Below, in pieces: positions 3,278-60,474 of a stretch of DNA of 64,000 nucleotides. How positions within the stretch are numbered: the first letter of the stretch is position 1; each line of letters opens with the position of its first letter. The notes under the pieces are model-generated. The model worked only from the letters and a program-made list of their open reading frames with translations, did no database searches and was not told the origin of the DNA. A program made the position numbers and the translations under genes. The stretch lies in contig MU004237.1 in assembly GCA_010405405.1 (NCBI GenBank), positions 782,191 to 846,190 on the forward strand, read 5' to 3'. Origin of the DNA: Microthyrium microscopicum (lineage: Eukaryota).

Positions 3278-6200
3278 ATGGCAACTTTGGCAAGTGGGCC
3301 GACGGCGAGCACTGCACCCAACCAGCCAGCTTTGCCATCAGATCTGGGGTAAGTGTCGTCTGCCGAGAATATCGTGGACGCTTCGTTTACTCTTTTGCAG
3401 CATTGCGGACAAAGTTAAGGAAGCATGGGATAAGCGCTGCTCCCATCTAAGTGATGAAGAACGAATGCGTTTCAATTCCTTTGCTTGCGCTGACATGACC
3501 GGCTACACTAAGGAGCTTTCAGTCTTATGTCAGAACCATAAAGATGAAAAGACACTGAACAAGGTCACGACAAAATGGTTCGAACCTTTATTTCACGCTG
3601 TTGGATTGTTCATACCCACCACCGCCATTAGCATCCAAGCCTATCCTAACCCAGGATCTCTAATTCTCGGGGCCATTGTACTGGTACTAGATACGACGAA
3701 AAGAGTTCAGGACTATCAAAAGTTGACAATACAAATGCTATCTAGGATGGGAAGGAAGTCCGAGGTCATCGCTGCGTACGAAAAGGAAGTTTACAAGGAT
3801 GACTTAATCGTTCAATTGAGTCTTGTGGAGCTTTGCGGATCAATCCTTGACTTTTGTTGCAAAGCTGTACGACAATTTGACAGGAAAGGAAAGCTTCAGG
3901 CTAAAGTGAAAGGAGTTGTGCTTTCAATCTTCCGCGACTTCAGCGCTTATTTGAGCGAAGAAGTTAAAAAGTTTGAGGATGCCATGGATGACCTCGAGCT
4001 CAAGGCACTTCTTTGTGATAAGCGGCGTCTTCAAAAATTACAACAAAATCAGACAGTGCAACAGCAAGTGATGCATGACCAGAGCGTGGCCAAGTCGCAG
4101 CGTCTGGATGATATCCACGAGATACAACTAAAGTTATGGGAGAGGCAAAACAATATTGATGCGAGTAAGTGCTCAAAGTCCTCCTGTGGGTGCCGATGAC
4201 AAGCTATATAGAACGGGCAGTCTCAGATTCTGATAGTGCTGTTTCTCACAATCCAGTCACTAAGTGTGAGATGCCGCGCAGTTGCTGACCTTGTTCAAAG
4301 AAAATCAAAAAGAGCATGAGGAGATTCAACGGCACCTATGGCTCAAGTGGCTATCTCCTCTGCATTTCCGAATGGAATACGATCAAAGATGCGAGGAACA
4401 TCTAGAGGGTACTGGAAACTGGCTTCTGGAATCCGAGGAGTATACGACATGGAAGAGCAAAGGCCAGTCCGACCTGCTCTGGATTAGGGGTAAGCCTGGC
4501 TGCGGTAAAAGTGTCTTAGCTGCGCTCGTGGCTTCAAATCTTATGGCAGAAGTCGATCAATATACCACACTTGCTTACGCTTTTATCAAACGAGAGCACG
4601 CGTCATCTCAAGATGTTCAGAGTATTCTGGGATCCTTGGTCAAGCAAAGCGGGCATGACCAGCCAGGATTCCCGGCGATGATACAAGAACAATTTTATGC
4701 ATTGGGGCAAGCTGAAAAGCCTGGCCCCATCGCTACTCGAAAGATCCTCCACAGTGTTCTGTCGGGTGTCAAAATGGCTTATCTTGTAGTGGATGGGCTT
4801 GATGAATGCAATGACTTTTGCAGGCCAGAACTTACAAAAGAGTTGATTCGCCTCCTCCAAGAATTGAACATGCCCGTGAAGATTGCCATATTTAGTCGAC
4901 AGGATCCTGATTTAGAGCTTCACCTCCGACAATACCAATTTTTGGAGCTCGATCGCGGTGCCAATCTGCTGGATCTTCAAGCATACATCGAGTCGAAATT
5001 TCCAGATAAAGGTCCAGATGATGTTCCGCACGGCACCAATAAGAAGATCCGGGACCATTGCTTGTCAAAGGCAGATGGAATGTTTTTTTGGGTATCTTTA
5101 CTCCACCAAAACCTTCAGCGGCTTGATTTCGCTGCAGACAAGCTCGAGAGAGTTGAGCACATGACCTTAGGCTTGGAAAATCTACTGGACCAAATCCTCG
5201 ATCAAATCTGGAAACAGGATATCCGAGTGCGATCTACTGCTTTTCTGGTCCTCATTTGGGTTACTCACGCGCGACATCCCTTGAATGAGTCTCAGATGTC
5301 GGAGGCTGTTGCTGATTATAGAGGTGCCGCAAGTGTCCAAGACGCCCAAAGTCTTACATCTGATAGACTTGTAGCCATTTGCGCAAACTTGGTTTACGTT
5401 GATCGTAATGGGATCTTTCGTTTGTGTCACGAAAGCGTTCGCTCCTATCTAGACGATCAATCGTCAAAACCAAGTCGTGCTCTTTTGAATTATCAAAAGC
5501 GCTCTCAGCAGGCTCATCGTGATATCTTTGAGATTTGCTCCACCTATCTCCTGCTTAAGGACTTTGAGTCGGGCCCTGCACAATCTCATCGTAGGCTTCT
5601 CCTGCTTCTCCAAAAGTTCAGCCTTCTGGCATACTGCTCTAACAATTGGGGTTGGCATTTGGCACAGTCGGAAACCGATGAAGCAATAGCCAAATCAACA
5701 TCTCGCGAATCAGGTCAACAACTAGCTGTGCAGCTTGTTGGATCAGCTGAAAAACGTGAGCTATTGCTCCAAGTAGTGTTTTACAATGGTCAAATAAATG
5801 ATTTCCGAAAGCGCATTGGACCGACGAATGCGTTGCATATTTTGGCCTGGTTTGGCTTGAAGGCCGTGGCCCAAATACTTCCAGATGTCAGATCAATGTG
5901 TAAGCAGAGCGACAGTACTGGATGGTTTCCAGCCACATATGCCATTGCACGAAAGCATCATGCTATGACTCTTTGGCTGCTCGACTTGGTTCCTTTGTCT
6001 GGTCTGAGACTCGACAAAGAGCGGATAAGCAGTCAAGTCAATGCTATTACAGCTTATGGCTGGATAGACGTACTTGAGAAGGTGCTGGCAGAGGATGCCT
6101 CATGCATCAATTTACTAGGCGACGACGGACTTTCACCTCTTCATCGATCTTGTCTGTCTGCAAATCTGAATATGACAGAAACCCTCCTTAAGTATGGAGC

Positions 6201-6765
6201 TGAAGTGGATGTTCAGAGTCGAGAAGGCTATCGGCCTCTTCAAATCGCCATCCAGCATAAAGCCCTGAACATTGTTGACCTCCTACTGGCTCATGATGCA
6301 GACCCCAATGCGTCAAATTCAAAGGGTTTAAAGCCCATACATATTGCTGCACGATTCGGAAACCGAAAAATACTTTTGCGCCTGATTGAAGCGGGAGCCG
6401 ACGCAAGTGAAACTGTCGAGAGATATCATTCTATGACGCCCATACACATGGCCGCATCGGCCGGATCCAACGGAGCGGAAATGATTGTTGCTCTTCGTGA
6501 TGCTGGCTTGCCTCTGGCCCCTTTGACATGGAAGTCGGAAAATCCATTGCACATTGCAGCTTTTTACAACTCCTATGAGACCGCGAAACTTCTTCTCGAT
6601 CTAGGTGTTCCTAAAGATCACACCGATATTGATAAACAAACACCGCTCTTTAAGGCTGCTGGACAAGGTCATTTGGAAACAATGGAAGTTTTCCTGAGGG
6701 CCGGCTGTGATGTGTCATCAGGTGACATGGTAGTTATGACGGCTCATAACGGCCACCCTAGCTAG
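3278..6765 (+). CDS. 5' half of a fungal NLR-like NACHT-ankyrin gene (N-terminal helical domain + NACHT + ANK repeats), truncated by a transposon insertion
   Basis: Inferred exons 3278-3348, 3401-4164 and 4301-6734 (GTAAGT donors, frame-consistent acceptors). Walker A GKPGCGKS, Walker B LVVDGLDEC, ADGMFFWV, HESVRSYL and multiple PLH ankyrin repeats. Reads into the TIR and stops at 6763-6765. Confidence 0.88.
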
Positions 6766-7250: not shown

Positions 7251-10200
7251 AGTTAAGGTAATATAATTAGTATATATATAGATTAGTAATAGAAATTAAT
7301 TAAGAAAGACTTTTAATTCTTAATAATATACTAATAGGTAGAAGTTAACTATTATTATAGAGTTTAATATAAAGTATAGTATTTCTCTCTCCTCCTTTAG
7401 TATTAGTTATACCTCCTAAGCAACTTTTATTATACTAAATACTTATATTAATTTAATTATATACTAAGCTTCTATTAAGAACTTAGTATTAACTAAAGGC
7501 TATACTAATACTAAGGTTTATAAATAGCTTCTTAATAAATATAGTATAAAGGTTTTTATTTAAACTATTTATTAAAGAATTAATAAATAGGAAATTTAAA
7601 GAAGAACTATATAGCTTAATAAAAATTTAAAGGACGTAATAAAGGCTTTATTTTATATCTTTAATAGCAATAAGAAGAAGATAATATATGCCCTATAAGA
7701 TTATAAGTATAAACTTTTCTAAAGGACTTTATAATAATATCGCTAAAGGCCTAGAATATCTTATTAGTAAAACTATAGATTATATTAAGAGTTCTATGAA
7801 GCATACTTTAAGAATAATTATAATATAATTTAGTATAAGCTTTAATAATTTTATTTTAGTATTATAAATTATAAATATTATATATTAGTAATAAGAATTA
7901 GAGCTTAGAAACATAATATACCTCTAAGAAATATTTATTTTATCTAATAATAATTAGATTTAGAAGCTACTACTACTTAATAGAAATAAGTATATTAAAA
8001 ATAAAGTAAATATAAAGTTAAAAGTCTAAATTATATTTAGTCTATTAATAAGTATAATAAACTAAAGCTATTTAGCTTTAAGATTTATAGCTATATTAAT
8101 GCCTACTTAAGATATCTTAACTATTATAATGTTAGTATATTAAATAGGATAAGTATTAACTATCTCTACTAATACTTAAATTATTTAGGAAATAAGCTAA
8201 TTTAGCTATAATTTATTTAATTAAACTAAGGTAGTAAAATAGTTATACTTACTAATACTTATTATAAATTCTTACTTACTTATAAACCTAACCTTTATTT
8301 TAAGAACTATTTCCTATATAAAATAAGTATTACTAACTAATAAATAGAATATTAATAAAAAAATCTTAGCAAATCTATACTAAATAAATAAAGAGTAAGT
8401 TTTATCTTATTAAAGTAATACTAATATACCTTACGCTCTAAAAGATATACTAATTCTTTATAAAAGTTTTTTAAGTAGCTTTAAAGAGATAGTAAATTCT
8501 TATAAAATAAACTTACTAATTATATTATAATGCTAGCTATGTTTATACCTATCTTATAAGATATTATTACTAAATACGTTTATAACTAAAATAATTATAA
8601 ATTAACTAATACTAAGAAAAGGCGCCCTAATGCTATTAATAGAAAGCTATAGTACCTATATAATTATCTTTAGAACGTAAAGAAGGTTAGCTTACTAATT
8701 AATCTTAAACTTATCTATATAGTAAAGTAATAAGCTAGTAACTAGAATAAAGATGCCTATCTACCTAAAGAAACCCTCTAATAGTGCTAATAAGAACTAT
8801 AGTAGATAAGGTTTAATCCTTCTATAAACCCTTTTAGTAATATCTAAGATTACTAAAGAAAGACTAATCTATTTAGAGGTATTTACCTAACTCTAAGAAG
8901 CGTACTAAATAAATATATCTATAATAAATAGTTACTAATTATATATTTTCTACTAATACTAAGTAGTAAAAAGAATTAAATTAAAGCTAATCCTAGTTAG
9001 CCTACTATAATTATACTAGCTAATATAAAATAAAATAAGGTTAAGAAATCTATTAAAGTAAGGATAGCTAAGTTCTACACTATATTAGATATAATAGAAA
9101 TAAACTACTTTTATATAGAGTAAGCTCTATATTCTAATAATAAGTCTTAGCTTACTTACTATAATATTATAAATAACGCTTCTTTAATAAATAGATAATA
9201 TATTTCTTAACTACTCTTTATCTAAGAAACTTAATTCTATTATATAAAAACTTACTCCCTACTAATATATATATTAGTTTAATACTTATTTACTTCTTTA
9301 ATATTTATATTCTTATATTTCTAATTTTATATCTATTATATTAGCTTTAAGCCCCTTTTATAAACCTACTTAAGTACTTAACTTCTAACTAAAAGGTATA
9401 CTATATTTAGCTTACTAAGATATAAATATAGCTTAGCAAAGAAGTTATAATTAAGATATAGATATAAAGTATCCTTCTTACTTCTAAGAAACTAGTATTT
9501 ACTAAGTAAAGAAAGTACCTTAACTAGTAAAAAGGTAATTAAAAGAGAATTCTTAACCTTAGATTAGACTACTACTAAAACTAATAATAATTAAAAAAGA
9601 AACTATTATTTATAATGTTAAGTTATATCTATTACCTATCTAATAAGTTTCTATAGTTAAAACTAAATAATTTAAGTCTATAAATAATAGCTCTATATTC
9701 TTACTTAATTTATATATTTAAATAAAGGATTATTAAGATAGAGAAAGAGATATACTAATATAAATAAAGTCTAAAGCTTCTATTACTTAGTTAGCTCTTT
9801 ACCTAAACCTAGTATTAGTTAAGAATATAAAAATAAGTTAGCTTTAAAGTATTAAAGATAATCTAAGTTTAATATATTAAAGCGCTAAAAAAACTTAAAC
9901 TAAATAGTCTTATAATTTTAATACTTAGAAGCTTTTTTATAATAATATACTATTAAATAATAAAGAGATATTCTAAAAAGCAGCCTAAATAAGTAAGTTT
10001 ACTAACTTACTAATAAAATATAGATTATTAGCTAATAAGAGCTAGGTTATTCTAGTAGTATTATCTATTAAAGTAATATAGATAACATCTTACACTTTAT
10101 TATAAAAATCTTATTTAAGTATTTAAACTAAGATATTATTAAATAGTTTTAGGCGTTATATAATAAAGATAAAGGTATAAAGTCTTATATCTTTCTTTAT

Positions 10201-13200
10201 AATAACGTAAAAAATACCTAAGGAGATATAAATAAAACTAAAAAGAAAGAACTAAGATTTAATAAGATTAGTAGAATATATAATAAACCTTAGAGCTTAG
10301 AAGATTTTTTTAAGAATAGGCTATTTAAGCTAAAGAAGAAAAAGAAAATAAGTAAAGTATAATTTAATATTAACCTTATCTTTTAGATTATAAGAACAAA
10401 TTATAAGGCTTAGGTAGATTATTATAAGTAACTTAATAACCTAGAAACCTTAAGTTTAAGAGAATAAAGACAACCTAGCAAAACAATACTAAGGCCTAAA
10501 TATTTAAATACTATATTACTTATACTACTTTCAATTTAAAATATTAAAAAGAAAAATAAGCTTAATAGTACTATTATTATAGTTAATTTTAATGCTTTTT
10601 AAAAGATTAAGAAAGAGTTTAAGTTAGCTATAATTAACTCTAAGGCCTTCTTTAACTTAACTAAATAAGGTAATAATAAAGATAAAGTTTTTAATAAATC
10701 TAGTAATTCTAATAATAATAAAAAGCTACTAGAGGATAAAGAGCTACTAAAGAAAACTAAAGATAATAATAACTATAAACTACCCCTAGAGCTAATAAAG
10801 AAAAATTCTACTAAAAAGAAAAAGAAAGGTAATAATATAGAAAAGTTAAAGCTATAAACTAATAAGGCGCTTTATAAACATAACGCCTCTAATACTAAGC
10901 TATCTAATTAAAACCTTTAAAAGTATAGAAAAGGGCTAGTAGTAAGCCTAAAATAAGAATAAAAGGAAGTAGAAACTTAATAAGTTATATAGCTTACTAC
11001 TAAAAAAGATTTATAAAGTAGCTTAAGTAAGAAAAAAAATAAAAGACGTAATAGCACTAGTAAATAAGGTAGACATAGTAGTACTACTAATAGAAACTAA
11101 TTTATCTTTATATCTCTTTACTAGTACTCTCTAGTCCTTCCTTTAGGTAGTTTTACTTTATATTACTAATAATATTACTCTTAAGTCTTATCTTTATTTT
11201 AATTTATAATATAATAACGCTACTAAATAGAGCTTACTAAAAGAAGACATACCTAGCGCTTAGCTAGTTAAATAGAATAATATTAGTTTATAAATATAAA
11301 ATAGCCTCTTACTAATTATTCTAAGCACTAGAGTACTTTAGCCTTAGGCCTTAGCCTCTACTAAGAATACTAACTAGGAATACCTTATAAATAGTAACGC
11401 TACCTTTAAGAAGTAAACTATACTAGGCTATACTAGACCTACTAAAAACTAGCTACTTTTTATTATTAAATATAGTATTAATTTCTTTAATTCCTTAAAA
11501 GAAATTAATTATTTATTATTTCTTTAAGGTTTTAAGTAAAGAAGATTACGCCCTTATATTACTTATATAGGCTTTAACTTATATAGAACTAAATAGTTAA
11601 GAAGTACTAACGCCCTATTTTAAATAAGGGCTACGTAATCTAATAATATATCCTTATAAGGCTAGTTACTAAATAATAAGTAACTAGCTTATTAAACTAT
11701 AATGCCTTATCTTTATATTACTAAACTAAGCCCCTTTAAATCCTTAAGTAGTTTATTAACTTATAGATTAAACCTAAGTAAATATTAGTAAGTATAGTAG
11801 TTAATATAACTTAGTAAAAAGAAGTTATAAAGTAAGATATAAAAAATTAGTATAGAATAACAAAAAAAATAAATAATAAGCTTAAGAATAAGTAATATAT
11901 AACATTTTTATAAATATACTAAAAATAGAATCTAAATTAATAACTAAATTAATTAAAAGCTATACTAAACTAAGAATCTAAATGCTAGAGAGTTATTAAT
12001 TAAGTATTAATATAATCTTATAAAAAAATTAGTTACGTTTCTATCTAATAATAATTACTACTTACTAAAAAATATAATAATAGGTTAAGCTCTAACTCTA
12101 ATTCTAATAAGACTTTTATAGCCTACTAGTCTATAGAGAAGTTATAGTCTTATTTAAGATAAATATAATATTAGTTAGTAAGAAATAACTTAAGAAGAGT
12201 TAATAAAGTTAATTATTAGGCTACTAAGTACTTAAAGGTAAAAGTAGTAAGCTCTTTAATATCTAAACTATATCCTTTTAAGACTCTTTTATTAAAAATA
12301 ACTCTATTTTTTCCCTTATACGTAATATAGTTATCTATATTCTTATTATTAAATTTATAATAACGCTTTAATAACCTCTTACTATTATACTTATAAAAAG
12401 GGTAACCTTTATTAAAATTAACCTCTTAAACTAATTACTTATTCTCTCCTTATTTTTTCTTAATTTTTACTCTATTTATCTTTTTTAAAGCTCTTAATAA
12501 GTTAATTTTTTTAGTATTATTTAAAATATAAATAGGCTAGTAATACTCTCTCTATTTAGTACTATCTATCTAAATAAAGCTTACCTTAGCCTTACTTATA
12601 CTTTTAAGAATTCTTCTTACTTATTTATATAATCTCTATAGTCTACCTTAAAAGCATATTAATAATATTAATACGCCCTTACCTTCTAGAAGATTTAAGT
12701 TACTAAACTTAACTAATAAGCTTATTATATTACTATTATAATCTATATATATTTTTATCTTCTTTACTATTAAATATATTTTAAAAATATCTAACTTCTC
12801 TTTACTATTTATATAGTGCTAAAGGTTCTTATAAAAGAGCTCTAGGTAAGATTCTTTAATTTAATATTTTATTATATTAATTTATATCTAATTATTAGTA
12901 TTAAGAACTTAATTAAATCTATAACCCTTAGAGTAAATATTATTAAAATAATATATAAAATAAAATAAAGCTTATAATTCCTTAGCTACCCCCTAATAAA
13001 CTAAAAGAATAGCTAAGAACGTATAAGTTTTATTTATTTTAATAACTTTTTAGCTAAATCCTTCTATATTAGAATATTTTATAAAGTAGTAACTTTAACT
13101 ATAGAGTAAGATCTAGAAAAAGTTATACCTATATTAACTTATAATTTTAATCTATCCTCTATTCTAAATAATATACTACTAACTAAAAGATATACTATAC

Positions 13201-16200
13201 TAAAAGAGAGTTAAATTTAACTTATATATACTTCTCTTAGTATTTTTAAGTCTTTATTTTTTAATATTAAACCCTAACTACTTCCTAAGTAAACTAAGAA
13301 AATAATTAGAATCTAATATAGCTTTAGAGAAGCTAATACCTACTTAAATTAGGATTTTTATTAGTCTATTATTAAGTTAGTATTATTTTTAATTATAAGT
13401 AGAAGTAAATAAATTCTTATATATTAATTATCTTATTACTAATATATATTTCTTCTATATAAAGCACTACCTTAATTAATAATATAGTAAATAAGAATCT
13501 AATACTTTATTAGTATATATATAATAAAGTCCTTAATAAAGATATACTATTACGTTAGATATAACTATCTTTCTAAAAAGAAGCACTACTAGCTATACTT
13601 TAATTAATACTTATAATATATACCTAAGTCTATAATTAGCTTTAACCTATTAATATAATATTATTTCTATAAATAAAAGACTTCCTAAAAAGATAAAAGA
13701 ACTAAATATATAATAAGCACCTAAAACAAGTAAAGTAGTATACTTACTTCACTATTTTAAGCATAGTAATAATAAGTAAAAGTAAATATATTAAAAAATA
13801 ACTACTAAAATAAATAGAGATATTAAAAGTAATTCCTACTATCTTAAAGTAAATTAGTAAATAATAAAGTAAATTTAGAACTTACTTAAAGTATACGTTA
13901 TAAGCTTAAATCTAGCAAAGAATAGCTTATAATACGCTTTTTATAGTTTTATTTCTATTAGTTATAATATATAAAATATAAGCCTACTATTCTATACCCC
14001 TAGATATTTTAAATAAACCCTTAGTTTATTCTTAAAGCTATTAATTATTACTAAGTAATAAGGTAGATAGATATATAAGCCCTATAAGTTAAAAGTTTAA
14101 CTACTTAGATTTTATAATATTCCTTTATAAATAAGCGTAACGATTAGTTAATAACTATTATAGCTAGTAATATATTTTTAAATATTAGCTAACTTTAAGC
14201 TACTCTTTTACTACTTAATTATTTAGCATTTAGATATATACTATAGTTGCTACTTCTACCTACTAGGGACTAGTACTTTTTAACTTAAAAAAAATACTAC
14301 TTAAATAAAAATATTTAGAAGTAGTTAACTAGCCTACCTCTATATATTAATAAACTAATAATAATATTTATTAATATTTATTTACGTTATCTAGTATATA
14401 TTAATAGAAAGCATATCCTTACCTTTTTTATAATATACTACTAATTATATGCTAAGTAATAAAGTTTCTCTATTTTTTTAGAGGCTTCTATATTTATATT
14501 CTTTTAATAATAATATTTACTACTTTAGATTAATAATATATACTAAGATTTCTATCTAAGAAAAAACTAAATATATCTAAAGTATAACTACTAGCTAATA
14601 AATAATATAGTTAAATTACCTTAATAAAGCTATTTAGAGTTCTTACCTAATAAACTTAACCTTCTTAAAAAAGATATATACTTTATACTAAAGTAAAGAG
14701 TATAATCTCTATTATACGTTAGAGCTAATGTATTAAATATACCTATTAATACTAGATTAAGGTAAAATTACTTTTTATAAATAAGAATACTCTTAGTAAA
14801 ATTAAGAGCCTATAGTTTATATAGGTTAATAATCCTATAACCTACTTATACTATTTATATTATTCCTAATATAGTACTTATACTTCTTAAGGATATAGAG
14901 TAGTATATAGAATTATCTCTATATATAATAATAATAAGGCTATAATAATATTAAAAAGTCTTTAGAAAGCCTAATTTAAATAAAAATTATAGTAGAAAAT
15001 TATAATAATTAGCTTTAGTTTTTAAATAACCTTCCTTCTAAATACTAACTTACTAGTATTTAGTTTAGATAGTATTTAAATAATATACTAATTTTTAACT
15101 AACTTTCTCTTATATTATAAAATATAAGCTCCTCTAATATATAGAATAACTTAATTACTATACCCTAGACTAGAGTATAACTACTATATAAATATAATAA
15201 GTTATATAAAACTATAGCCTTAAAAAAGCATCGTTAGTAAAATAGATAAAGAAAGAATAAGATTAGACTTAAAAAGTATACTAGAATTACTCTATTATAA
15301 CTAATAAGCCTATTTATAAAATAAAATCTCTAAATAAAGAGGTAATTAATTATTATTAATAAGCCTACTATAAATAGTAGTCTATAATAGGCTATAACTA
15401 ATAAAGGGTAGTAATATTATTTATATTTTATATATAGTATTTCTAAGTAATAAGTAGTTATAGTATTTAGCATAACTAAAATATTAATTAATTAATAGTT
15501 AAAAACTACTTATATTACTATAAATTAACTTAGCGTAATATAATATATTAATATAGAATATATTAACGTTAAAGATATTAAGACTTTTTTTTAAAAGAAA
15601 AAAATTAATATAAAAAATACCTTACTATTTTAATCTTTTCTAAAAAGCGTATTAAAGAAGGGTAACCTATAAAGTATAATAAGATATTTCTAATAATAAA
15701 TATTAAAGTATAAATAGTTATAAAAATTATTATAATATTATTACCCTAAAAGGGTCTTAATATTAATTAAGATCTATTAAGATACCCCTATAATAATTTT
15801 ACTAAGTATTAGTATAAATATACTACTTAATAAGCTTTATTATAAAAAGCTCTACTTACCTAAGTAATACATAGTATTAAATAATACTACTTAGTAATAA
15901 AAAGACTTTATAACTATTCTAGCTAGTTAATACCTATATATCTAGAAAACTAGACTAAATTATAAAGATAGATTAAACTAGTAATCTCTACTAATTTTAG
16001 CTACCTTAAAGCTAAGTAATTATTAAATAGTACTTCAAAAAGTAACTATAAGTTATTCTTTTTATTTTACTAAAATAAATATATATAATAAATAAAATAA
16101 TATCTTAATTTCTTATATAATAAGTAAAATAATATCTTAATCCCTTATGCAAAGTATCTCTTTATAAAGAGTAGATACCTTAATATATTCTAATAAGTTA

Positions 16201-18197: not shown

Positions 18198-18406
18198 CTC
18201 TAATTAATATCTATATTAGTTATTACTAATTACCTTAATTTAGGTATTAAAAAATATATAATTTTTAAATATCCCTTTTAGAATTTATCTAAAGCGCTAA
18301 AATAAGAAAATAGGTATAGAAATATTGCATTTATAAAATATAGATATTTAGACCTTTTAGTTTTAGTGAACTAGCCAAGGTGGCCATTATGAGCCATCAT
18401 AGTAGT

Positions 18407-21400
18407 AAATGTTCTTCATTGCATGGCGTTTTCTAGAAAATTGCCCATCGTGGATAGTGCCTGGAAGTATATCAGTAAAACGAAACAACCGCTAGAGGCG
18501 ACAGAACTACTTAACCAACCAAACCTGAGTGGAGGGTCACCTCTCGAAGTCGCCATTACAAACAACAGCACGCCCATTGCGAAATATTTTCTAGCACTTG
18601 GTGCTGAAATCCATCCCTTAAGATATTTACTACACCATGCCGCCGCCCATGGAAACAGGTCAATAGCTAAGGTTCTTTTAAGACGCACCAAAGACCCGAA
18701 CCCCAAGGACAGCAACGGCGAAACTCCCCTTTTCGCCGCCATTAAATCCCGTAGATGGGATTTTATTGAATCATATTTTCAGGAGTGTGCGAAACTGGCC
18801 ATCGTGGTAGATGTCAATGCTACAAACAAACACTCCGAAACTCTCTTGCTTTTGGCGATTTCCCTCTCTTCCAGTAAAATAAGTGAATTACTGCTGAGCA
18901 AAGGTGCTACATCAATTCCTAACACCCTTGGAACGTATCCGATACACCTGGCTGCAATCTTGGGTCTGGACTCGGTCGTGAAGGTGCTAGTCAATCATGA
19001 CGGGGCGAAGAGCTCAAATAATTGGGGGTGTACGGCACTCTACTGCGCCGCGAATAATGGAAAACTTGGAATTCTGAAGTTTTTGGCAACCCATTCTCCA
19101 GGCTTGATAAATGTCGCGGACAAGACAGGGTACACTCCACTAATGGTCGCTTTAAAGCATAAGTATTACGATATCGCAAACTACCTTCTGGACTCCAAAG
19201 CTGATTGTCGTTCACATGCAGACGATGGCATCAACTCACTTCATGTGGCTGTTACTGGTAGTAACGTGAAGATGGTACAGCGACTCCTCGATCTTGGCGT
19301 AGACGGAAATGCCACTACCAATCAGGGTCAGACAGTTACTCATTATGCCGTGCGAGGCGATAGTTGGGCACAAATGGAAATTATTGAGGAACTTGTTAAG
19401 AGAGGTTACAACCAAGTCAACATTCTTGATCAGGGAGGAATATCTGTCCTTCATTCGGCTGCCATCAAAGGACATCTAAAGATATTGCAGAGGCTCGAAA
19501 GCCTTGGCGGAACTTTAGAGGTGGAATCAGTATTTGGCTATAATCTAGTGCTGATAGCATCGGTTAGGGGTCAATTGGAAATTTTGAAGTACCTCAGAAG
19601 ACGAGGTGCAGATTTTACCTATCGTGCGCAGGACGGACTAGACGCTCTCGCCCTTGCGGCCGAATCTTATCCAGAGACTGTCAAGCTATTACTCGACATC
19701 ATTCCTGAAAGAGCAAATGATCAGGCAAATATCTACCAAGACTCCCCGCTCCTGATCGCTGCTCGCGCAAAGAACCATTTGGCCGTACGATATCTCCTCG
19801 AAGCCGGGGCAGATCCATTTCGTCGTAATCTACTTGGTTTATGTACCTGGGATTATGCGTGTCACCATCAGCAGACTCAAGAAGAGATTGAAAAGGTTTT
19901 TGGAAAATTCGATGTTGATGAGAAATGGCACAGTGGGAACGAAAGGCGATCCATTCTCATGAAAACAGTCAATGACTGTGTTGCGAAGCTCACAGAGCTC
20001 ACACAGTCCCCGAAAAGCAGCCAGTCGACGACTTCACTTTTTGTTTCAGAGTCTGTTATGATACTGCTAAGCCAGACCCTCCTTCACTTAGGAGATCAGA
20101 AAGCGTTCAAAATCTGTCATATGGCTCTTTTATCCATATTACAACCAGTTTCAATAGGGAACAATTGGGATTGTAGTATGTGTCAAACGGAGTTATTTGC
20201 TGTTGAGCATTTCGTTTGCAAGTCATGTCCTGGTCTCGTCTTACTGTGTAAGAAGTGTATGCTTGCTTACAACTCGTCTGGAAAATGTGCACCTCTTGCT
20301 CTCAAGGTCCTAGTGTCACTGGAAGAAACAGTCAGGCCGATAAGAGCTGTGTTACAAGACACGTTGCTTAGTACGGCTACTGCTGCAATGTATCTAAATG
20401 ACATTACTCGGGAGTGGCTTACCCAAACGACTGAGGCGTACGATTCTTGGGTACTGAAGTATAGCTCACAGGGTGAACTGGTCCAAATCCCTCGCCCTGG
20501 GGAAAGATGCCTAAGAATGATCCAAGAAATGTACAGTGGCCTTCTCCAAAGAGGAGCAAGCATCGACTTCCATCTGGCTGAGGATGTGGAACTGATTAAA
20601 ACAACTCTTGGACGTTTCTGCGCTCTTCAATCAGAACATAGAGCTGACAAGGCACCATTGTCGTTTACATGCAAAGATCATGACTTTCTGTCCATCTCAC
20701 AGAAATGTTTCGAAAACATCAATGCCGCCGCAATCAGTGGGACTGTCACACTCGCCTTCTTGTCAACGCTACTTTCCAAATACGATAATGGAAAAGAGAA
20801 TGATGAATCCACGGAACATATTACCGAATCGAAGGGAAAGAACCATTTCTCGACATCACCGTTGGGCATGGAGACTGCCGATGTACCTGAGCCAGCTTCA
20901 ACTCTCGATCTGTCAGAGAGGAGTCACCGTACAAGTCTTAAGGAACCTTCGCAAGCTAACTTCTGGTCACCGCCCAATCAACATCTTTCGAAAGGATCTG
21001 ACACGACGCAGCTACTCAAACGCTCACGAACACTTCCACAAAGCAGTGAAGTAGCTAAATTTCCGAGACGAAGTATGAGTTTAAGAACCTGGGATTTTGA
21101 GGGAAGTAAGGCTCTAGAGTCAACTAAATACACATTGCCATCCTCCAAGACAAAGGGGCGTTTATTCAAGTCCTTTGATATAGATCAAACAGCGACAATA
21201 GAGTATGCGTCATTGGCAAAAGCTTACCATACTCTGGCCAGCAACCAGGTACCGTCTGCTAGGCCAAAGCCTGAGGCCGATCTTGAGATGGTGGAGAAGC
21301 GGAAGTTGATCAACCCTGGCAAACCTAAGCATGGACAAGAAAACCAGACATGGTCAAATGTTACGAATGCAGACGACAAAGGCGTGCCAGCGGAAATGCT

Positions 21401-21656
21401 TCGAAAATTTCGGATGAACGGCGAAGACAAAGAGATCATTAAAAGTGCATATACCAAATGCTATGGCTATGCGGCTGATGATACATTCTTGAACATTTGG
21501 GCTGCGGCCGTTGAAATTACAGAAGTAATTAAGCCTGGTTGGAAGCACGAGTATTTTCTGGATGCTCTACATGAGCTTGAAACCACTGAAGCATCACGTT
21601 TGGAGGCTGAAAGGCTAGATGAGAGTTTATACCAGAGCACAGATACGGATGGATGA
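18407..21656 (+). CDS. 3' half of the NACHT-ankyrin gene: many ANK repeats, Cys-rich ZZ-like zinc finger and low-complexity tail
   Basis: Uninterrupted 1077-aa ORF from ATG 18423. The frame continues upstream (VVNVLHC) to the element boundary and joins the 5' half in frame. Contains ANK repeats (GETPLFAA, GYTPLMVA) and CSMC...CKSC...CKKC. Confidence 0.88.
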
Positions 21657-53892: not shown

Positions 53893-55274
53893 GATGCCAA
53901 TAGTTGTTGTTTGAAAAGGACGAGCAATTGGTGTGATGATCAATAAAACGAATGGATTGAAGATCAAAGGGAAAATGAGTGTATCTCAATGATTTGAGCA
54001 AAGGCAAGATGCCTAGGGGCTTGTCACTCAGAGATAATATGTATTTGATCAATCATTGTTTGGTAGACTGTGGGGCAAGCTCAGGGGAAAACAACCTGAT
54101 AATGGGGATTTTTGATGGCATAACATGAAGTAACAGGCTCGTCCATGGCATTATTGGCAGCGGACGAAGGGTCAATCCAGACTCATTTACTGGGACACGT
54201 GCTGGAGGATAAGTTTGGCCTATATCTTGGCTATCAGCTGAAGCTTAATCACACCAAGTGTTCTCCAGCAAAATACAGGGTGTGATGAGTGGAAAATGAC
54301 GCCTCCGTACCAGATATCAGGTAGTATGTATAGATCCAGCCATTGGACATAAACGCCACCAATATTGAAATTGACGGATGCAAGAAATATAACTTAAAAT
54401 AGAACCGAATGGGTATTGTTATGGTTAACGATAAAAATGAATAATGAAAGAGAGGGTAGGTAGAAAAGGATCGCCATATCAGAAGTGTGGACACGGGGAG
54501 CTTCTGCGATAAGCGAGTACCATCCAGACGTAGTTTGGTAATAGAGCTAAAGCCACTTCCTCTAATTGGATGGTAACGAGATGGAGTAGCATCATTAATG
54601 TAGTGACCCATAAAAGGACTAGATGGGGCAGGTGGGATTTATCAAAAGCAAGCACTCGATCCAGAAACATTCAAGAGGACAGGCATCGTAGTGGCTTGCG
54701 ACCCACTTACACTTATTGTGATGAGAGAAGAATCGATACACGAGAATCCAGAAAATGCCCCGAGTTCTTGCACCGCTGGCTAGGAATATCGGACCAGGCG
54801 GAATATGCATAAGAGCTCAAATCCGTCATGGCAAGAGGTTGCCAGCCATAATGATGGTCCTTAGCCTCCATACAATAGAGTTAGTAAAACTTCACACAAA
54901 ATTGATATGAATATGAACCAGGTAAATGCGAAGAAGGTCAATATTGACAAAATACTCGGGCATGAACATTATGGATGTATAATGTATGCATGCTTCATCG
55001 TGCGTTGTGTTAAAGAAGTCTTTCCATTTGAGTAGACTGCTGAGATTTGTATGATTGTATGCTTAAAGTCTCATACATGCGATCTTGTCAGTGGTGTTGC
55101 GAAATGTATTTTGGCATCAACACTATGTAAGCATAATTATGAATTTATGATAGACTCTCAGAGAAGTGTTTACGATATAAGGGGTAGGCCCATTCTAAAG
55201 ATGTATGATCTTAGTCAAAGAAAAAGCCAGATATTGTTATACGAATTTTGGGCAAATCCCAGCTTGAAGGATAA

Positions 55275-55409
55275 GCTGTTTTGGCCGAGTGGTCTAAGGT
55301 ATTTACGCACCATTTCAATACGAATTAGTCAGATTGTCTAACTTGACGCAGGCGCTGGTTTTAAGCACCAGTTTCGAAAGAAGCGTCGGTTCGAACCCGA
55401 CAGACAGCA
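55275..55409 (+). tRNA. tRNA-Leu(UAA): tRNA-Leu (anticodon TAA) interrupted by a 53-nt intron in the D-stem
   Basis: Exon 1 55275-55298 GCTGTTTTGGCCGAGTGGTCTAAG plus exon 2 55352-55409 fold as a complete type II cloverleaf: acceptor GCTGTTT/AGACAGC+A, anticodon stem CTGGT/ACCAG with loop TTTAAGC, variable arm TTC-GAAA-GAA, T arm GTCGG-TTCGAAC-CCGAC. A and B boxes are intact. Confidence 0.92.
55299..55351 (+). other. Spliceosomal-type (GT-AG) intron within the tRNA-Leu gene
   Basis: AG|GTATTT donor, CTAAC branch site at 55338-55342 and CAG|G acceptor at 55349-55351. Exact removal restores the tRNA. Confidence 0.8.
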
Positions 55410-55434
55410 ATTTCACTTCAGTATTGAAACTCTC

Positions 55435-55441
55435 TTTTTTT
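55435..55441 (+). terminator. Probable Pol III terminator (T7) of the tRNA gene
   Basis: Run of 7 T about 25 nt downstream of the tRNA 3' end. Confidence 0.65.
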
Positions 55442-57089
55442 GGTATGCTCATAATACCATCTACATTAGGGTGCTTGTTTTTGCTGTCATTGAATGAGGA
55501 TATTCAATGATGTTTTGAAAGAGAAAGGTCGGTAGCGTACCGTTACCATGCAACCACTGTATGTTTTATCCTGATAATATATAAACTTTAGTGTCTAGTA
55601 AAGATGCTGAGTACTCTTATCTATGATTTGGGCCTTGCATGATGCCGAACGATATCACAATATCAATTTCAATTGTACCTACATTCAGGAATCCTTGTTT
55701 CCCAATTCCTATCATACACTCAGCCTCGCCTAACAGTACTCTACTCTAGCCTGATTAAATACATAAAATGGCTGTGCATTATCCCTATTGTGGCGCATTA
55801 TTGGAGCACACGACTTGCCCAGTCCGACATTGATTCGCGTTTCTATTTGATCTTCCAACTTCTCCTTGCGCAAGTTCTACTCTATCCACGGGAGACAAGG
55901 ACCTACCCGAAATCTGTCAATCTCCGGTCAAGAACAAGAAAAGAGTGCTAAACAGAATTTGGTAATAACCTTCGCGACGAATTAGCAATGCATGCAAGCG
56001 TTATGCGCGAGCACTGCAATTCTCCAACAGATGGAAAGATGCCCAAAACTGCGCCACCATTTCCACCCACCGGGCACCCTGGCATTTGGCCCCCACCGCC
56101 CTTTCACTGTGCTCTTCTGCTCCTCTCCACCAGCAAAGTGATCCTAAAGGCGGAGGAAGCAGGTTGGGCGCTTGTCATGGCGGGTATTCGTTTGGGCTTG
56201 ATCATCGCATATCGAACCAAATCGCCACCAACGTGGAGGAAGGAAGGCAACGAGATTGTCACGATCGTCAGAACTGCCCGCAGAGCCCCAGTCTTAGATT
56301 GAACAGTCAGCGACGTTGAAGATGCTGGGCGCATGCATGTTGCTCGTGCTGGGCCGGCTTCGCCAGCGATACCTTGTGGACGGCCAGCGAGCTCTTCCGT
56401 TGCTTGGTGCGGGCAATCTGCTGTTCGAGGTACCAAGTCACACGAATTTGGTTACAAGTCTTGTTTGCCTTGAAATGTCTCCGCGACACCAGTGACCAGA
56501 CGGGGCACTGTTGTAAATGGCACAGCAGATGATGATTGAAAAAAGGCGGCGGAACAGGCGACCCGTGGACCCGTTGAGACTTGAACTGCTTGGAGTTGGA
56601 TGGCAGGGTGTCAGATGGTTGTTGCCAATCATTTCTCATGAAATCTATGAACCTCATTTGGGAGGCCGGCTTGGACATGGCTTGCATTCTTTCGGATTCC
56701 CATGCTAAGCGTAGTTCCTAGTAGTGTGAGCAGATCATGAGAGCAAGGGTTTAAACTGCCGGCTTATTTTTAAAACCTCTGCGATATCTCTCTCTTGCTT
56801 CCCATCCCATCCTGCAGTTTCATCCTCCCTTCCTTCCATTCCATTACCATACACTTCCTCGCCGCCCACTTATTTATCCTACCCCGGTGCTGACTGTTCC
56901 TCCAAGTCTTCACTTTATATTCCTATCTTCCCATACAAATTACAATCCCTCAACAACTCTACACTCTCTCCTGCCTATCAGTCCTCCAACCCTTGACTGG
57001 TGAGATTCCTACCCCGCAGATCACTCCGACTCGCAAGCCCCCACCCATACCAAACCACCAGATTACCACCAAGCAATAAAACACAAACT

Positions 57090-59430: not shown

Positions 59431-60474
59431 TTAGACGATTCTAGCCTTCTCCTGAATAGAGTCCTCGCGCAACCACCGTACTTCCGCCCGCCGAACTAAC
59501 TCCTCATACACCGTCCACGCCAACGCAGAACTCATCCCCTTCCTCGCCATCCTGAGCCCCAACCCATCAAATAAACACCGCCATCCCTCTTCCCGGACCA
59601 TCATCTTACACGCTTTCACCATATTCCCATACCGCGTAGGCTGTAACTGCAGTCTTGTCTTAATCGCATCAAACGGATTCGTAATCGCCGTCGCCGCTCC
59701 CGCCGCAATCGTCCCCGATGTGAAATTTATACCCGCCGAACTCCCCAAATATCCACCGTCCGCATCCGCCGTATGGCCAGACAGCGAATGTAATCGGCGC
59801 TTGCCAGCTTCATAGAATAGCACGTAAAGCCCCGCATACGGCGCATCACGTACGGCCGTCGCGCCAAAACCTGCGAAAAATCCACGCCATCCACCTGTGC
59901 TGAAGATATCGCGGCTTGCAGAGCCAATGGACGTGTATGCGTATAGCGAGCTTTCATAGCGGACTTTTATGACTGTTATTGGCATCATTACAAATCCTGC
60001 TGCGGCGCGTGCGAATGCGCCTGTTAGGAGATTCGCTGTATGCGTAAGGCGCGGTTTGCCTGCTCCGCCATCGGGGTTGGGAGGGACGACGCCGAAGCCA
60101 GGGCGCGCGAGGACGGCGCCGCGTAGCCAGTCGAGGCCGCCAAAGTAGAGTGCTGAGCCGGCGCCGGTGCGGATGGCGGAGGGGAGGGTGCCGCGCCAGA
60201 GAGTGCGGACGGGGTGGGGGGAGGAGGCGATTAGTCGCAGGGTTTGGAGGAGGGTTGTGTGTTGGGATTGTTGGAGGCGGGTTTTGAGGAGGTCGGCGGG
60301 TTGGAGGAGGATGGAGGATGTTAGGCCGCTGAGGAGACCGGCGCCGAAGTGGAATGCTAGAGAGGATGTTAGCTGGACTGGGTGTTTGCATCTTGGTAAG
60401 GGAAGTTGTGGGGAGGAAGACGGACACTTGCGGGTCAGGGCCGAAGTCTTGGAGAGGTCGCCATTTTCGGGCAT
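59431..60474 (-). CDS. HEM25: Mitochondrial glycine carrier (SLC25A38/Hem25)
   Basis: [69 protein letters not shown] and RMARK..SSALAW. Confidence 0.9.

What the first reader, a model, noticed from the sequence alone, without database searches (positions are those of the whole stretch)
55275..55409. tRNA-Leu(UAA) gene interrupted by an apparent spliceosomal intron in the D-stem
Seen: joining 55275-55298 to 55352-55409 gives a complete Leu tRNA cloverleaf with no mispairs beyond G-U in the acceptor, anticodon and T stems, intact A/B boxes and a downstream T7 run. The 53-nt insert lies between tRNA positions 23 and 24, not at the canonical 37/38 site. It reads GTATTT...GTCTAAC-TTGACG-CAG at an AG|G proto-splice site, matching the size and signals of the mRNA introns in this window. 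Established: eukaryotic tRNA introns are normally at 37/38 and are cut by the TSEN endonuclease; non-canonical positions in archaea and Cyanidioschyzon use BHB motifs. Spliceosomal introns are known in fungal U6 snRNA, snoRNA and rRNA genes. I am not aware of one described in a tRNA. Inference: this tRNA may be matured by the spliceosome, linking UUA decoding to pre-mRNA splicing, and standard tRNA finders would probably miss it.
Basis: partly seen in the sequence, partly recalled or inferred. Interest (0 to 1): 0.93.

Follow-up and report, generated by a model that had tools for sequence, protein, structure and literature searches.

The report
Leucine tRNA gene with mRNA-type intron
A fungal gene for a leucine transfer RNA is interrupted, away from the usual place, by a short insert that carries the signals of ordinary messenger-RNA introns, and the same arrangement turns up in four other organisms, which suggests a kind of tRNA intron that has not been described.

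Summary
Removing window 55299-55351 (53 nt) gives an 82-nt tRNA-Leu(UAA). ARAGORN and Rfam at its gathering score miss the native gene.

The insert has GTATTT, TCTAAC and CAG. Its size and signals match the mRNA introns of this Dothideomycete window.

New here: a metagenome scan found four other organisms whose Leu tRNA genes (UAA, UAA, UAG, CAG) carry an unrelated insert at the same D-arm site. Every insert ends in CAG. One of these genes has three such inserts (D arm, variable/T junction, T loop) plus an ordinary 37/38 intron.

After removal, 99 of 100 stem positions pair in the five genes, and 14 of 20 stem pairs show compensatory change. None of the 7 inserts has a bulge-helix-bulge motif.

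I found no report of spliceosomal introns in tRNA genes (10 searches). This scan noted a similar tRNA-Ala case in an alga earlier (e1-4091646).

Not shown: the spliced RNA, a lariat, which polymerase transcribes the gene, or whether this is the only Leu(UAA) gene. One RNA contig starts exactly at the insert/exon-2 border and remains unexplained.

Best reading: a functional tRNA gene whose intron the spliceosome removes (about 0.65).

The parts
55275..55298 (+). tRNA-Leu(UAA) exon 1: acceptor 5' strand, positions 8-9, D stem 5' strand, D loop and the first base of the D stem 3' strand. It contains the A box (55282-55292).
   Evidence: ARAGORN drawing of the joined sequence.
55299..55351 (+). 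53-nt insert read as a spliceosomal-type intron. 5' site GTATTT is at 55299-55304. Branch-like TCTAAC is at 55337-55342, with its A at 55341, 10 nt from the 3' end. 3' site CAG is at 55349-55351. The longest T run is 3.
   Evidence: It is single copy in the window and has no stable fold of its own.
55352..55409 (+). tRNA-Leu(UAA) exon 2: the rest of the D stem, the anticodon arm (anticodon TAA at 55362-55364), the long variable arm, the T arm with the B box (55388-55397), the acceptor 3' strand and discriminator A (55409).
55435..55441 (+). Run of 7 T, 26 nt past the discriminator. It looks like an RNA polymerase III terminator.
   Evidence: Comparable T runs follow the related genes: T7 in L082, T5 in L034, T4 and T7 in L073.
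55351..55800 (+). Left part of a 1901-nt contig of run X5 (its kind is guessed to be RNA). The contig begins at 55351 directly after 24 nt of sequencing adapter and runs colinear through exon 2 and the T run. Nothing assembled covers 55228-55350.
   Evidence: tables 2, 7 and 8. The meaning is unresolved.

Best explanation
This is a working nuclear gene for tRNA-Leu(UAA) of a Dothideomycete fungus. Its D arm is split by a 53-nt intron of the ordinary mRNA (U2-type GT-AG) kind.

Proposed path; every step is inferred unless marked shown:
1. The gene is transcribed through the intron. RNA polymerase III is the likely enzyme, using the intact A and B boxes and stopping at the T7 run. Those elements are shown; their use is not.
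2. U1 and U2 recognise AAG|GTATTT and TCTAAC. The spliceosome removes the intron as a lariat branched at A55341 and joins G55298 to G55352, which restores the D stem.
3. RNase P, RNase Z and CCA addition finish the tRNA.

The precedent is the mRNA-type intron of the polymerase III-transcribed U6 gene of fission yeast and other fungi.

The intron probably arose by insertion at the conserved AAG|G site in the Leu D loop, the kind of site at which new spliceosomal introns are thought to arise. The same site is occupied in other lineages and other Leu isoacceptors.
For: - Removing the 53 nt gives a complete tRNA-Leu(taa).
- The window's own mRNA introns look alike. One is fixed by a protein identical to the window's exons: 60357-60425, 69 nt, GTCCGT..GCTAAC..TAG. 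Seven more, picked by eye from the 486 ORF-joining GT..AG candidates and not otherwise confirmed, are 43-106 nt long, with the A of a YTRAY motif 7-37 nt from the 3' end (10-18 nt in five of the seven). They include GTATTC and GTTTGT 5' sites. The tRNA intron is 53 nt, with CTAAC 10 nt from the end.
Removing it leaves tRNA-Leu(cag), (tag), (taa) and (taa).
- The inserts are 134, 81, 55 and 54 nt long. They are unlike each other and unlike the window's insert, yet all 5 end in CAG. The search pattern did not require that. The deletion scan that found the window's gene and three of the four organisms did not use it either; L073's D-arm boundary was set with a pattern containing AG followed by GCG.
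- L073 has two further inserts, delimited only by the tRNA structure: a GT-AG insert of 56 nt and a GC-AG insert of 53 nt, both with CTAAT or CTAAC 10-12 nt from the end. It also has a normal 32-nt intron at 37/38.
- A YTRAY motif lies 10-30 nt from the 3' end in 6 of the 7 inserts.
- 0 of 7 inserts, over 24 equivalent registers, has the 4-bp central helix of a bulge-helix-bulge motif.
- In the five spliced genes 99 of 100 stem cells pair, 14 of 20 stem pairs show changes on both sides, and all have A73. So the spliced product is what selection keeps.
- TTA codons are used: 4 of 37 Leu codons in one window gene. The organism therefore needs this tRNA species.
Against: - No RNA evidence exists for the spliced junction, a lariat or the mature tRNA. 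Only one possible RNA run was listed.
- In that run a contig starts exactly at the insert/exon-2 border. A cut by an endonuclease at that border would predict this; spliceosomal chemistry would not.
- GTATTT lacks the usual G at intron position 5. The 5' exon is only 24 nt and would be uncapped on a polymerase III transcript.
- The 5' GT of the four metagenome D-arm inserts was imposed by my search pattern, so it is not independent evidence.
- The absence of long T runs in the inserts says little. The window's mRNA introns also have T runs of at most 4.
- Other, uninterrupted Leu(UAA) genes in this genome could not be looked for.
- In L073 the T-loop insert splits the B box, which fits poorly with a standard internal polymerase III promoter.
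- The organisms behind the metagenome loci are unknown.
Confidence: 0.65

Rival explanations
1. The insert is a real tRNA intron, but it is removed by a protein endonuclease and a ligase rather than by the spliceosome. The enzyme would be the tRNA splicing endonuclease acting at an ectopic site, as in Cyanidioschyzon merolae and nucleomorphs, or some other nuclease.
For: - Ectopic and multiple tRNA introns in D, anticodon and T arms are known in eukaryotes (PMC3728597 abstract in the listing; PMC9602550 abstract).
- The X5 contig begins exactly at the insert/exon-2 border, as a 3' cleavage product would.
- L073 and probably L082 also carry a normal 37/38 intron, so that enzyme acts on the same precursors.
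Against: - None of the 7 inserts has a bulge-helix-bulge motif in any of 24 equivalent registers. The best cases reach 3 of 4 central pairs with no outer helix.
- The predicted precursor fold shows no such structure.
- This model does not explain why all 7 inserts end in AG, why 6 of 7 have a branch-like motif at the usual distance, or why their lengths match local mRNA introns.
- The ruler mechanism of the eukaryotic enzyme (recalled) measures to the anticodon loop only.
Confidence: 0.12
2. The locus is a dead tRNA gene disabled by a 53-nt insertion, and the splice-like signals are chance. UUA is decoded by another gene.
For: - ARAGORN and Rfam reject the native sequence.
- No RNA evidence for the mature product exists.
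- The 5' site is weak.
- AGG is repeated at both borders, as a target-site duplication would be.
- Other Leu(UAA) genes could not be excluded.
Against: - All stems of the joined product pair and all promoter and terminator elements are intact.
- The same site carries unrelated inserts, all ending in CAG, in four other organisms whose genes are also intact. That gives 99 of 100 stem cells paired, with compensatory change in 14 of 20 pairs.
- A gene that had taken up four inserts (L073) would not keep a perfect cloverleaf if it were dead.
Confidence: 0.1
3. The tRNA is made from a longer RNA polymerase II transcript, in which spliceosomal splicing is the normal route, and is then cut out by RNase P and RNase Z. 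Alternatively, the 3' half of the gene now serves mainly as the start of a downstream polymerase II transcript.
For: - The X5 contig runs unbroken from 55351 through exon 2 and the T7 run into downstream sequence. So some RNA reads through the presumed polymerase III terminator.
- In L073 an insert splits the B box.
- A tRNA transcribed by polymerase II is on record for trypanosome tRNA-Sec (PMC2943599, title and abstract in the listing).
Against: - The A box, B box and T runs close behind the gene are kept in the window and in L082 and L034.
- No assembled RNA covers exon 1 or the intron.
- Contigs cannot show a start, a strand or a single transcript, as the tool itself states.
Confidence: 0.1

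Closest known systems
mRNA-type (spliceosomal) introns in U6 snRNA genes of Schizosaccharomyces pombe and other fungi, and in U1, U2 and U5 snRNA genes and rDNA of ascomycetes (review PMC5855946, passages read, which cites Tani and Ohshima 1989 and 1991, Takahashi 1993 and 1996, Canzler 2016 and Bhattacharya 2000)
   Same: - A short intron with canonical 5' site, branch site and 3' site sits inside a gene for a structured non-coding RNA. For U6 that gene is transcribed by polymerase III.
- Several introns can occur in one gene: up to four in a fungal U6 gene, and three here in L073.
- Introns at one site are not conserved in sequence.
- Fungi are the main hosts.
   Different: - The host gene here is a tRNA, which that review's list does not include.
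- The usual explanation for snRNA introns is reverse splicing into RNAs that sit at the spliceosome's active site. That does not apply to a tRNA.
- The same tRNA precursor can also carry a protein-spliced 37/38 intron.
Ectopic and multiple introns of nuclear tRNA genes in the red alga Cyanidioschyzon merolae (PMC3728597, abstract in the listing; PMC3978253, passage read; PMC9602550, abstract read)
   Same: Eukaryotic nuclear tRNA genes interrupted in D, anticodon and T arms, with several introns per gene, which tRNA finders that expect an intron only in the anticodon loop miss.
   Different: Those introns are defined by bulge-helix-bulge motifs and are cut by the tRNA endonuclease. Here the motif is absent in 7 of 7 inserts, and the borders and branch motif are those of mRNA introns.
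Canonical eukaryotic tRNA introns at position 37/38, removed by the tRNA splicing endonuclease (PMC12530127, passages read)
   Same: An intervening sequence in a nuclear tRNA gene that must be removed before the tRNA can function. L073, and probably L082, have one of these as well.
   Different: - The position is the D arm rather than the anticodon loop.
- The length is 53 nt.
- The borders are GT-AG with a branch motif.
- That paper's introduction treats spliceosomal and tRNA introns as unrelated classes and places spliceosomal introns in polymerase II transcripts.
   Same: A nuclear tRNA gene with a spliceosomal-looking intron outside the anticodon loop. This suggests the phenomenon is not confined to fungi; two of my metagenome organisms are also unlike fungi in composition.
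   Different: Another tRNA and another organism. It is an unchecked AI note that I did not re-test.

Membership tests
Spliceosomal (U2-type GT-AG) intron | GT (or GC) at the 5' end and AG at the 3' end | tested here: met
   The window insert reads GTATTT...CAG in one of its four equivalent registers. All 7 inserts in 5 organisms end in AG; 6 begin with GT and 1 with GC. The GT of the four metagenome D-arm inserts was forced by the search pattern.
Spliceosomal (U2-type GT-AG) intron | Branch-site motif (fungal CTRAY) a short distance upstream of the 3' site | tested here: met
   TCTAAC is at 55337-55342, with its A 10 nt from the end. A YTRAY motif lies at 10-30 nt in 6 of 7 inserts; L073's D-arm insert has only CTTAC.
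Spliceosomal (U2-type GT-AG) intron | Length and signals like the host's mRNA introns | tested here: met
   Eight window mRNA introns are 43-106 nt long with similar sites. One is fixed by an identical protein (60357-60425); seven are from ORF joining only.
Spliceosomal (U2-type GT-AG) intron | Removal by the spliceosome through a lariat | not testable with these tools
   No RNA read across the junction or the branch was available.
Protein-spliced tRNA intron (tRNA endonuclease type) | Position 37/38, or a bulge-helix-bulge motif at the borders | tested here: not met
   The position is 23/24 (range 21/22 to 24/25). No 4-bp central helix occurs in any of 24 registers of the 7 inserts, and none appears in the predicted fold.
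Functional nuclear tRNA-Leu gene | Cloverleaf with long variable arm, A73, and conserved D-loop and T-loop bases after intron removal | tested here: met
   ARAGORN calls an 82-nt tRNA-Leu(taa). Across the five genes 99 of 100 stem cells pair and all have A73.
Functional nuclear tRNA-Leu gene | Internal A and B boxes and a downstream T-run terminator | tested here: met
   A box at 55282-55292, B box at 55388-55397, T7 at 55435-55441. The exception is L073, where an insert splits the B box.
Functional nuclear tRNA-Leu gene | Native sequence reaches the Rfam tRNA gathering score | tested here: not met
   21.1 bits against a cut-off of 29, as expected for a 53-nt insertion.
Functional nuclear tRNA-Leu gene | Mature, aminoacylated tRNA present in cells | not testable with these tools
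   No suitable RNA data were available.
Multi-copy introner or introner-like element | Near-identical copies elsewhere in the genome | tested here: inconclusive
   No second copy occurs in the 64-kb window, and the 7 inserts are not similar to each other. The whole genome is not held.
Self-splicing group I or group II intron | Ribozyme core recognisable by covariance models | tested here: not met
   No intron family matched at an E-value up to 10. The 53 nt have no stable fold.

The most novel reading that the evidence does not exclude
Spliceosomal introns are a recurrent, overlooked class of intron in nuclear tRNA genes of fungi and other eukaryotes. There can be up to three per gene alongside a protein-spliced one. 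In these organisms the spliceosome would be needed to make certain tRNAs, here the only kind that reads UUA. Polymerase III precursors (or polymerase II-made tRNA precursors) would be regular spliceosome substrates, and published tRNA gene counts would be too low.
Probability: 0.6. Interest if true: 0.9.

Novelty: new variant of a known kind. Interest (0 to 1): 0.86.

Why it matters
Current accounts treat tRNA introns and spliceosomal introns as separate classes with separate machineries. A 2025 paper (PMC12530127, passages read) calls the intron types unrelated. A 2018 review (PMC5855946, passages read) lists the non-coding RNAs known to carry spliceosomal introns as snRNAs and rRNA, with no tRNA.

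If these inserts are spliced as their signals suggest:
- Translation of some codons would depend on pre-mRNA splicing capacity.
- The spliceosome would be shown to work on a second class of small structured, probably polymerase III-made RNA.
- The Leu D-loop site AAG|G would be a natural example of repeated intron gain at one site.
- tRNA finders would need a mode for such genes. Otherwise an essential isoacceptor appears to be missing from a genome.

The claim can be tested directly with tRNA sequencing and a few point mutants.

Tried and rejected
- **Whole genome.** None is held, so other Leu(UAA) genes and other split tRNA genes of this fungus could not be sought.
- **Sequencing runs.** No RNA holder is listed as such. 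There are four DNA runs of the probable source sample, identical to the window with no variant lacking the insert, and one run whose kind is only guessed to be RNA. That run has no cover over 55228-55350. The tool warns that such holes prove nothing and that human-like records are dropped; exon 1 is a highly conserved tRNA sequence.
- **More DNA around the metagenome loci.** These records are not held, so the organisms behind L034, L049, L073 and L082 stay unknown. Their flanks have no similarity to the window.
- **Prokaryote and viral collections.** A gapped pattern for the D-arm insert gave 0 hits in each, as expected for a eukaryotic feature.
- **Other split tRNAs in the window.** None was found.
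- **The remaining loci.** Of the 40 loci (out of 116) without a plain tRNA call at the match, 34 were not classified beyond a look by eye. Many are a tRNA-derived repeat family or are cut by contig ends. L089 gave shifting identities in the deletion scan and is an ordinary gene with an anticodon-loop intron.
- **T runs as an argument for polymerase III.** Dropped, because the window's mRNA introns have equally short T runs.
- **RT stop as the cause of the contig end.** I considered a stop at a modified G26 (recalled chemistry). The end lies 3-4 nt from where such a stop would fall, and the contig runs on past the tRNA's 3' end.
- **Literature.** Ten searches found no spliceosomal intron in a tRNA gene. 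The library lacks most subscription journals, and I opened no supplements.

Full report
**What is in the sequence**

There are 24 nt that match the 5' end of a eukaryotic Leu tRNA up to the D loop, then 53 nt, then 58 nt that hold the rest of the tRNA.

A script that joined 55275-55298 to 55352-55409 gave an 82-base tRNA-Leu(taa) in ARAGORN. The acceptor, anticodon and T stems are all paired, and the product has a long variable arm and discriminator A.

The native sequence is not found by ARAGORN, with or without its intron options, nor by Rfam at gathering scores. With lax thresholds the Rfam tRNA model reaches 21.1 bits against a cut-off of 29 and bridges a 54-nt insertion.

The A box (55282-55292), the B box (55388-55397) and a T7 run (55435-55441) are intact. 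This is the only tRNA-like signal in the 64 kb.

The border cannot be placed to the base. Four registers give the same product, and one of them is GT-AG.

**The host and its mRNA introns**

The window encodes NACHT-ankyrin proteins, a LysM-GH18 chitinase and other genes typical of filamentous ascomycetes.

A mitochondrial carrier gene at 59434-60474 (minus strand) is identical to a protein that NCBI names from the Dothideomycete Microthyrium microscopicum. The only difference is a 23-residue gap. That gap is a 69-nt intron at 60357-60425, with GTCCGT, GCTAAC and TAG.

Seven further introns, picked by eye from the 486 ORF-joining GT..AG candidates and not otherwise confirmed, are 43-106 nt long. 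They have CTAAC, CTGAC or CTGAT with the A 7-37 nt from the 3' end, and 5' sites as loose as GTATTC, GTTAGC and GTTTGT.

The tRNA insert has 53 nt, GTATTT, TCTAAC with its A 10 nt from the end, and CAG. It sits inside this range. It is single copy in the window and has no stable fold of its own: the precursor fold has z = -1.41 and keeps only tRNA arms.

**Related genes elsewhere**

I scanned the metagenome collection for the end of exon 1 followed by GTR.

ARAGORN found ordinary genes, mostly bacterial tRNA-Ser, at most of them. 40 loci had no plain tRNA call at the match.

A deletion scan then removed 5-330 nt after the exon-1 end and asked ARAGORN for a tRNA across the join. Besides the window, it recovered L034, L053, L049, L078 and L082. 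L089 also appeared, but with shifting identities; it is an ordinary gene with an anticodon-loop intron.

L034=L053 and L049=L078 are the same sequences from two records each. The genes are:

| Locus | tRNA | Insert |
|---|---|---|
| L034=L053 | Leu(cag) | 134 nt |
| L049=L078 | Leu(tag) | 81 nt |
| L082 | Leu(taa) | 55 nt |

L082 also needs a 10-nt stretch removed at 37/38 to give an 82-nt tRNA. Without that, ARAGORN calls an over-long tRNA with anticodon tta.

L073 looked broken until three inserts were removed:
- 54 nt at the same D-arm site;
- 56 nt (GTATGC..GCTAAT..CCAG) between the variable arm and the T stem;
- 53 nt (GCAAGT..CCTAAC..GCAG) inside the T loop.

ARAGORN then called an 84-nt tRNA-Leu(taa) with a normal 32-nt intron at 37/38.

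So four further organisms carry an insert at the window's site. The flanks and the inserts have no similarity to the window or to each other.

**What the comparison shows**

The 5' GT of the four metagenome D-arm inserts was imposed by my pattern and counts for nothing.

The following were not imposed by the search pattern:
- All five D-arm inserts end in CAG. The deletion scan that found the window's gene and three of the four organisms did not use AG; L073's D-arm boundary was set with a pattern containing AG followed by GCG.
- The two extra L073 inserts, delimited only by the tRNA structure, are GT-AG and GC-AG.
- 6 of the 7 inserts have a YTRAY motif with its A 10-30 nt from the 3' end.
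- The three fungus-like genes have inserts of 53-56 nt.

After removal of the inserts, 99 of 100 stem positions pair in the five genes. 14 of 20 stem pairs show changes on both sides, and all five genes have A73 (one search had one gene mis-trimmed, and one search corrected it). Selection therefore acts on the spliced product. A dead gene would not keep a perfect cloverleaf through four insertions.

I tested for the alternative splice signal of tRNA introns, the bulge-helix-bulge motif, in every equivalent register. That is 24 registers over the 7 inserts. None has the 4-bp central helix. The best cases have 3 of 4 pairs and no outer helix.

**The RNA data**

Only five runs hold the stretch. 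Four are DNA runs of the probable source sample. One, X5, has its kind guessed as RNA.

Laid on 54900-55800, the DNA contigs are identical to the window. X5 gives three contigs with depths of 3.5, 13.4 and 876.8, which fits RNA. Its 1901-nt contig begins at 55351, directly after 24 nt of sequencing adapter. It runs colinear through exon 2 and the T7 run. Nothing assembled covers 55228-55350.

The first base, G, fits the last base of the insert. It fits the last base of exon 1 equally well.

A start of cover exactly at the insert/exon-2 border is striking, but I cannot interpret it. Four readings remain open:
- a polymerase II start near the 3' site;
- an endonuclease cut at the border;
- an assembly tip artefact;
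- missing neighbours, since the tool drops human-like records and exon 1 is conserved.

The tool itself says that contigs cannot show a start, a strand or a level. I therefore count this as unexplained, and as the main item against a purely spliceosomal account.

**Mechanism**

The elements are shown. The path is inferred.

The precursor is most likely made by polymerase III, from the A and B boxes to the T7 run. The spliceosome removes the intron through a lariat at A55341, which restores the D stem. End processing follows.

The precedent is the mRNA-type intron of the polymerase III-made U6 snRNA of fission yeast and other fungi. A 2018 review (PMC5855946, passages read) reports up to four such introns in one fungal U6 gene, and others in U1, U2 and U5 snRNA genes and rDNA. 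It does not list tRNA.

A variant is that the precursor is a polymerase II transcript. Read-through of the T7 run in X5 hints at this, and so does L073, whose T-loop insert splits the B box.

The exon context AAG|G is the classical site at which new spliceosomal introns are thought to arise (recalled). That would explain the repeated use of one place in the conserved Leu D loop. Whether the five inserts are one old intron or parallel gains is open.

**Does the organism need this gene?**

TTA codons are used: 4 of 37 Leu codons in the carrier gene. Only a UAA-anticodon tRNA reads them (established decoding rules). Whether this is the only such gene could not be tested.

**Novelty**

Ten full-text searches found no spliceosomal intron in a tRNA gene.

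A 2025 paper on tRNA introns states that the three intron types appear unrelated and places spliceosomal introns in polymerase II transcripts (PMC12530127, passages read).

The known ectopic tRNA introns of eukaryotes, in Cyanidioschyzon merolae, are of the bulge-helix-bulge type (PMC3978253 passage; PMC9602550 abstract; PMC3728597 abstract in the listing).

This scan noted one similar case before: a tRNA-Ala gene of an Ostreococcus-like alga with an mRNA-type intron (e1-4091646). That is an unchecked note.

I class the finding as a new variant of a known kind, namely spliceosomal introns in genes for structured non-coding RNAs. For tRNA biology it would be a new class of intron.

**Verdict**

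| Reading | Confidence |
|---|---|
| Functional gene whose intron is removed by the spliceosome | about 0.65 |
| Removal by an endonuclease and ligase | about 0.12 |
| Dead gene | about 0.10 |
| Made from, or serving, a polymerase II transcript | about 0.10 |

Noticed in passing
L073:1-776 (oriented as): A tRNA-Leu(UAA) gene with four interruptions. Three are spliceosomal-looking inserts (54, 56 and 53 nt; the last is GC-AG and splits the B box in the T loop). The fourth is a normal 32-nt intron at 37/38. T4 and T7 runs follow the gene.
   Followed up: yes
window 55351-55800 and beyond: A contig of run X5 (1901 nt, mean depth 877, against 3.5 and 13.4 for the contigs upstream) begins exactly at the insert/exon-2 border after adapter letters. 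It reads through the T7 run. No long ORF lies in 55351-57089, and the next gene starts at 57090.
   Followed up: partly
L082:292-470 (oriented as): After removal of the D-arm insert, ARAGORN reads an over-long tRNA with anticodon UUA, which would read a stop codon. Removing a further 10 nt at 37/38 gives a normal 82-nt Leu(UAA) with one U-U mismatch at 31-39. I favour the two-intron reading, but the alternative is not excluded.
   Followed up: partly
L049 and L078, about 330-419 nt past the pattern match: A degenerate partial second copy of the 3' half of the same Leu(UAG) gene. It lacks about 15 nt, and its T stem no longer pairs.
   Followed up: partly
L016, L019, L032, L035, L037, L048, L057, L079, L087 and others: A family of tRNA-derived repeats. 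They share a Leu/Ser-like 5' part and a conserved downstream block, and look like short interspersed elements of an animal genome within metagenome records.
   Followed up: no
window 8001-16000: A block with 19-21% G+C, against 43-50% elsewhere. It is flanked by NACHT/ankyrin-repeat genes at 4270-6765 and 18393-21656. It looks like an AT-rich repeat-degraded region.
   Followed up: no
window 60357-60425 (minus strand): The intron of the mitochondrial carrier gene is 69 nt long, in frame and free of stop codons. The open reading frame therefore runs straight through it; only comparison with the identical named protein reveals it.
   Followed up: yes
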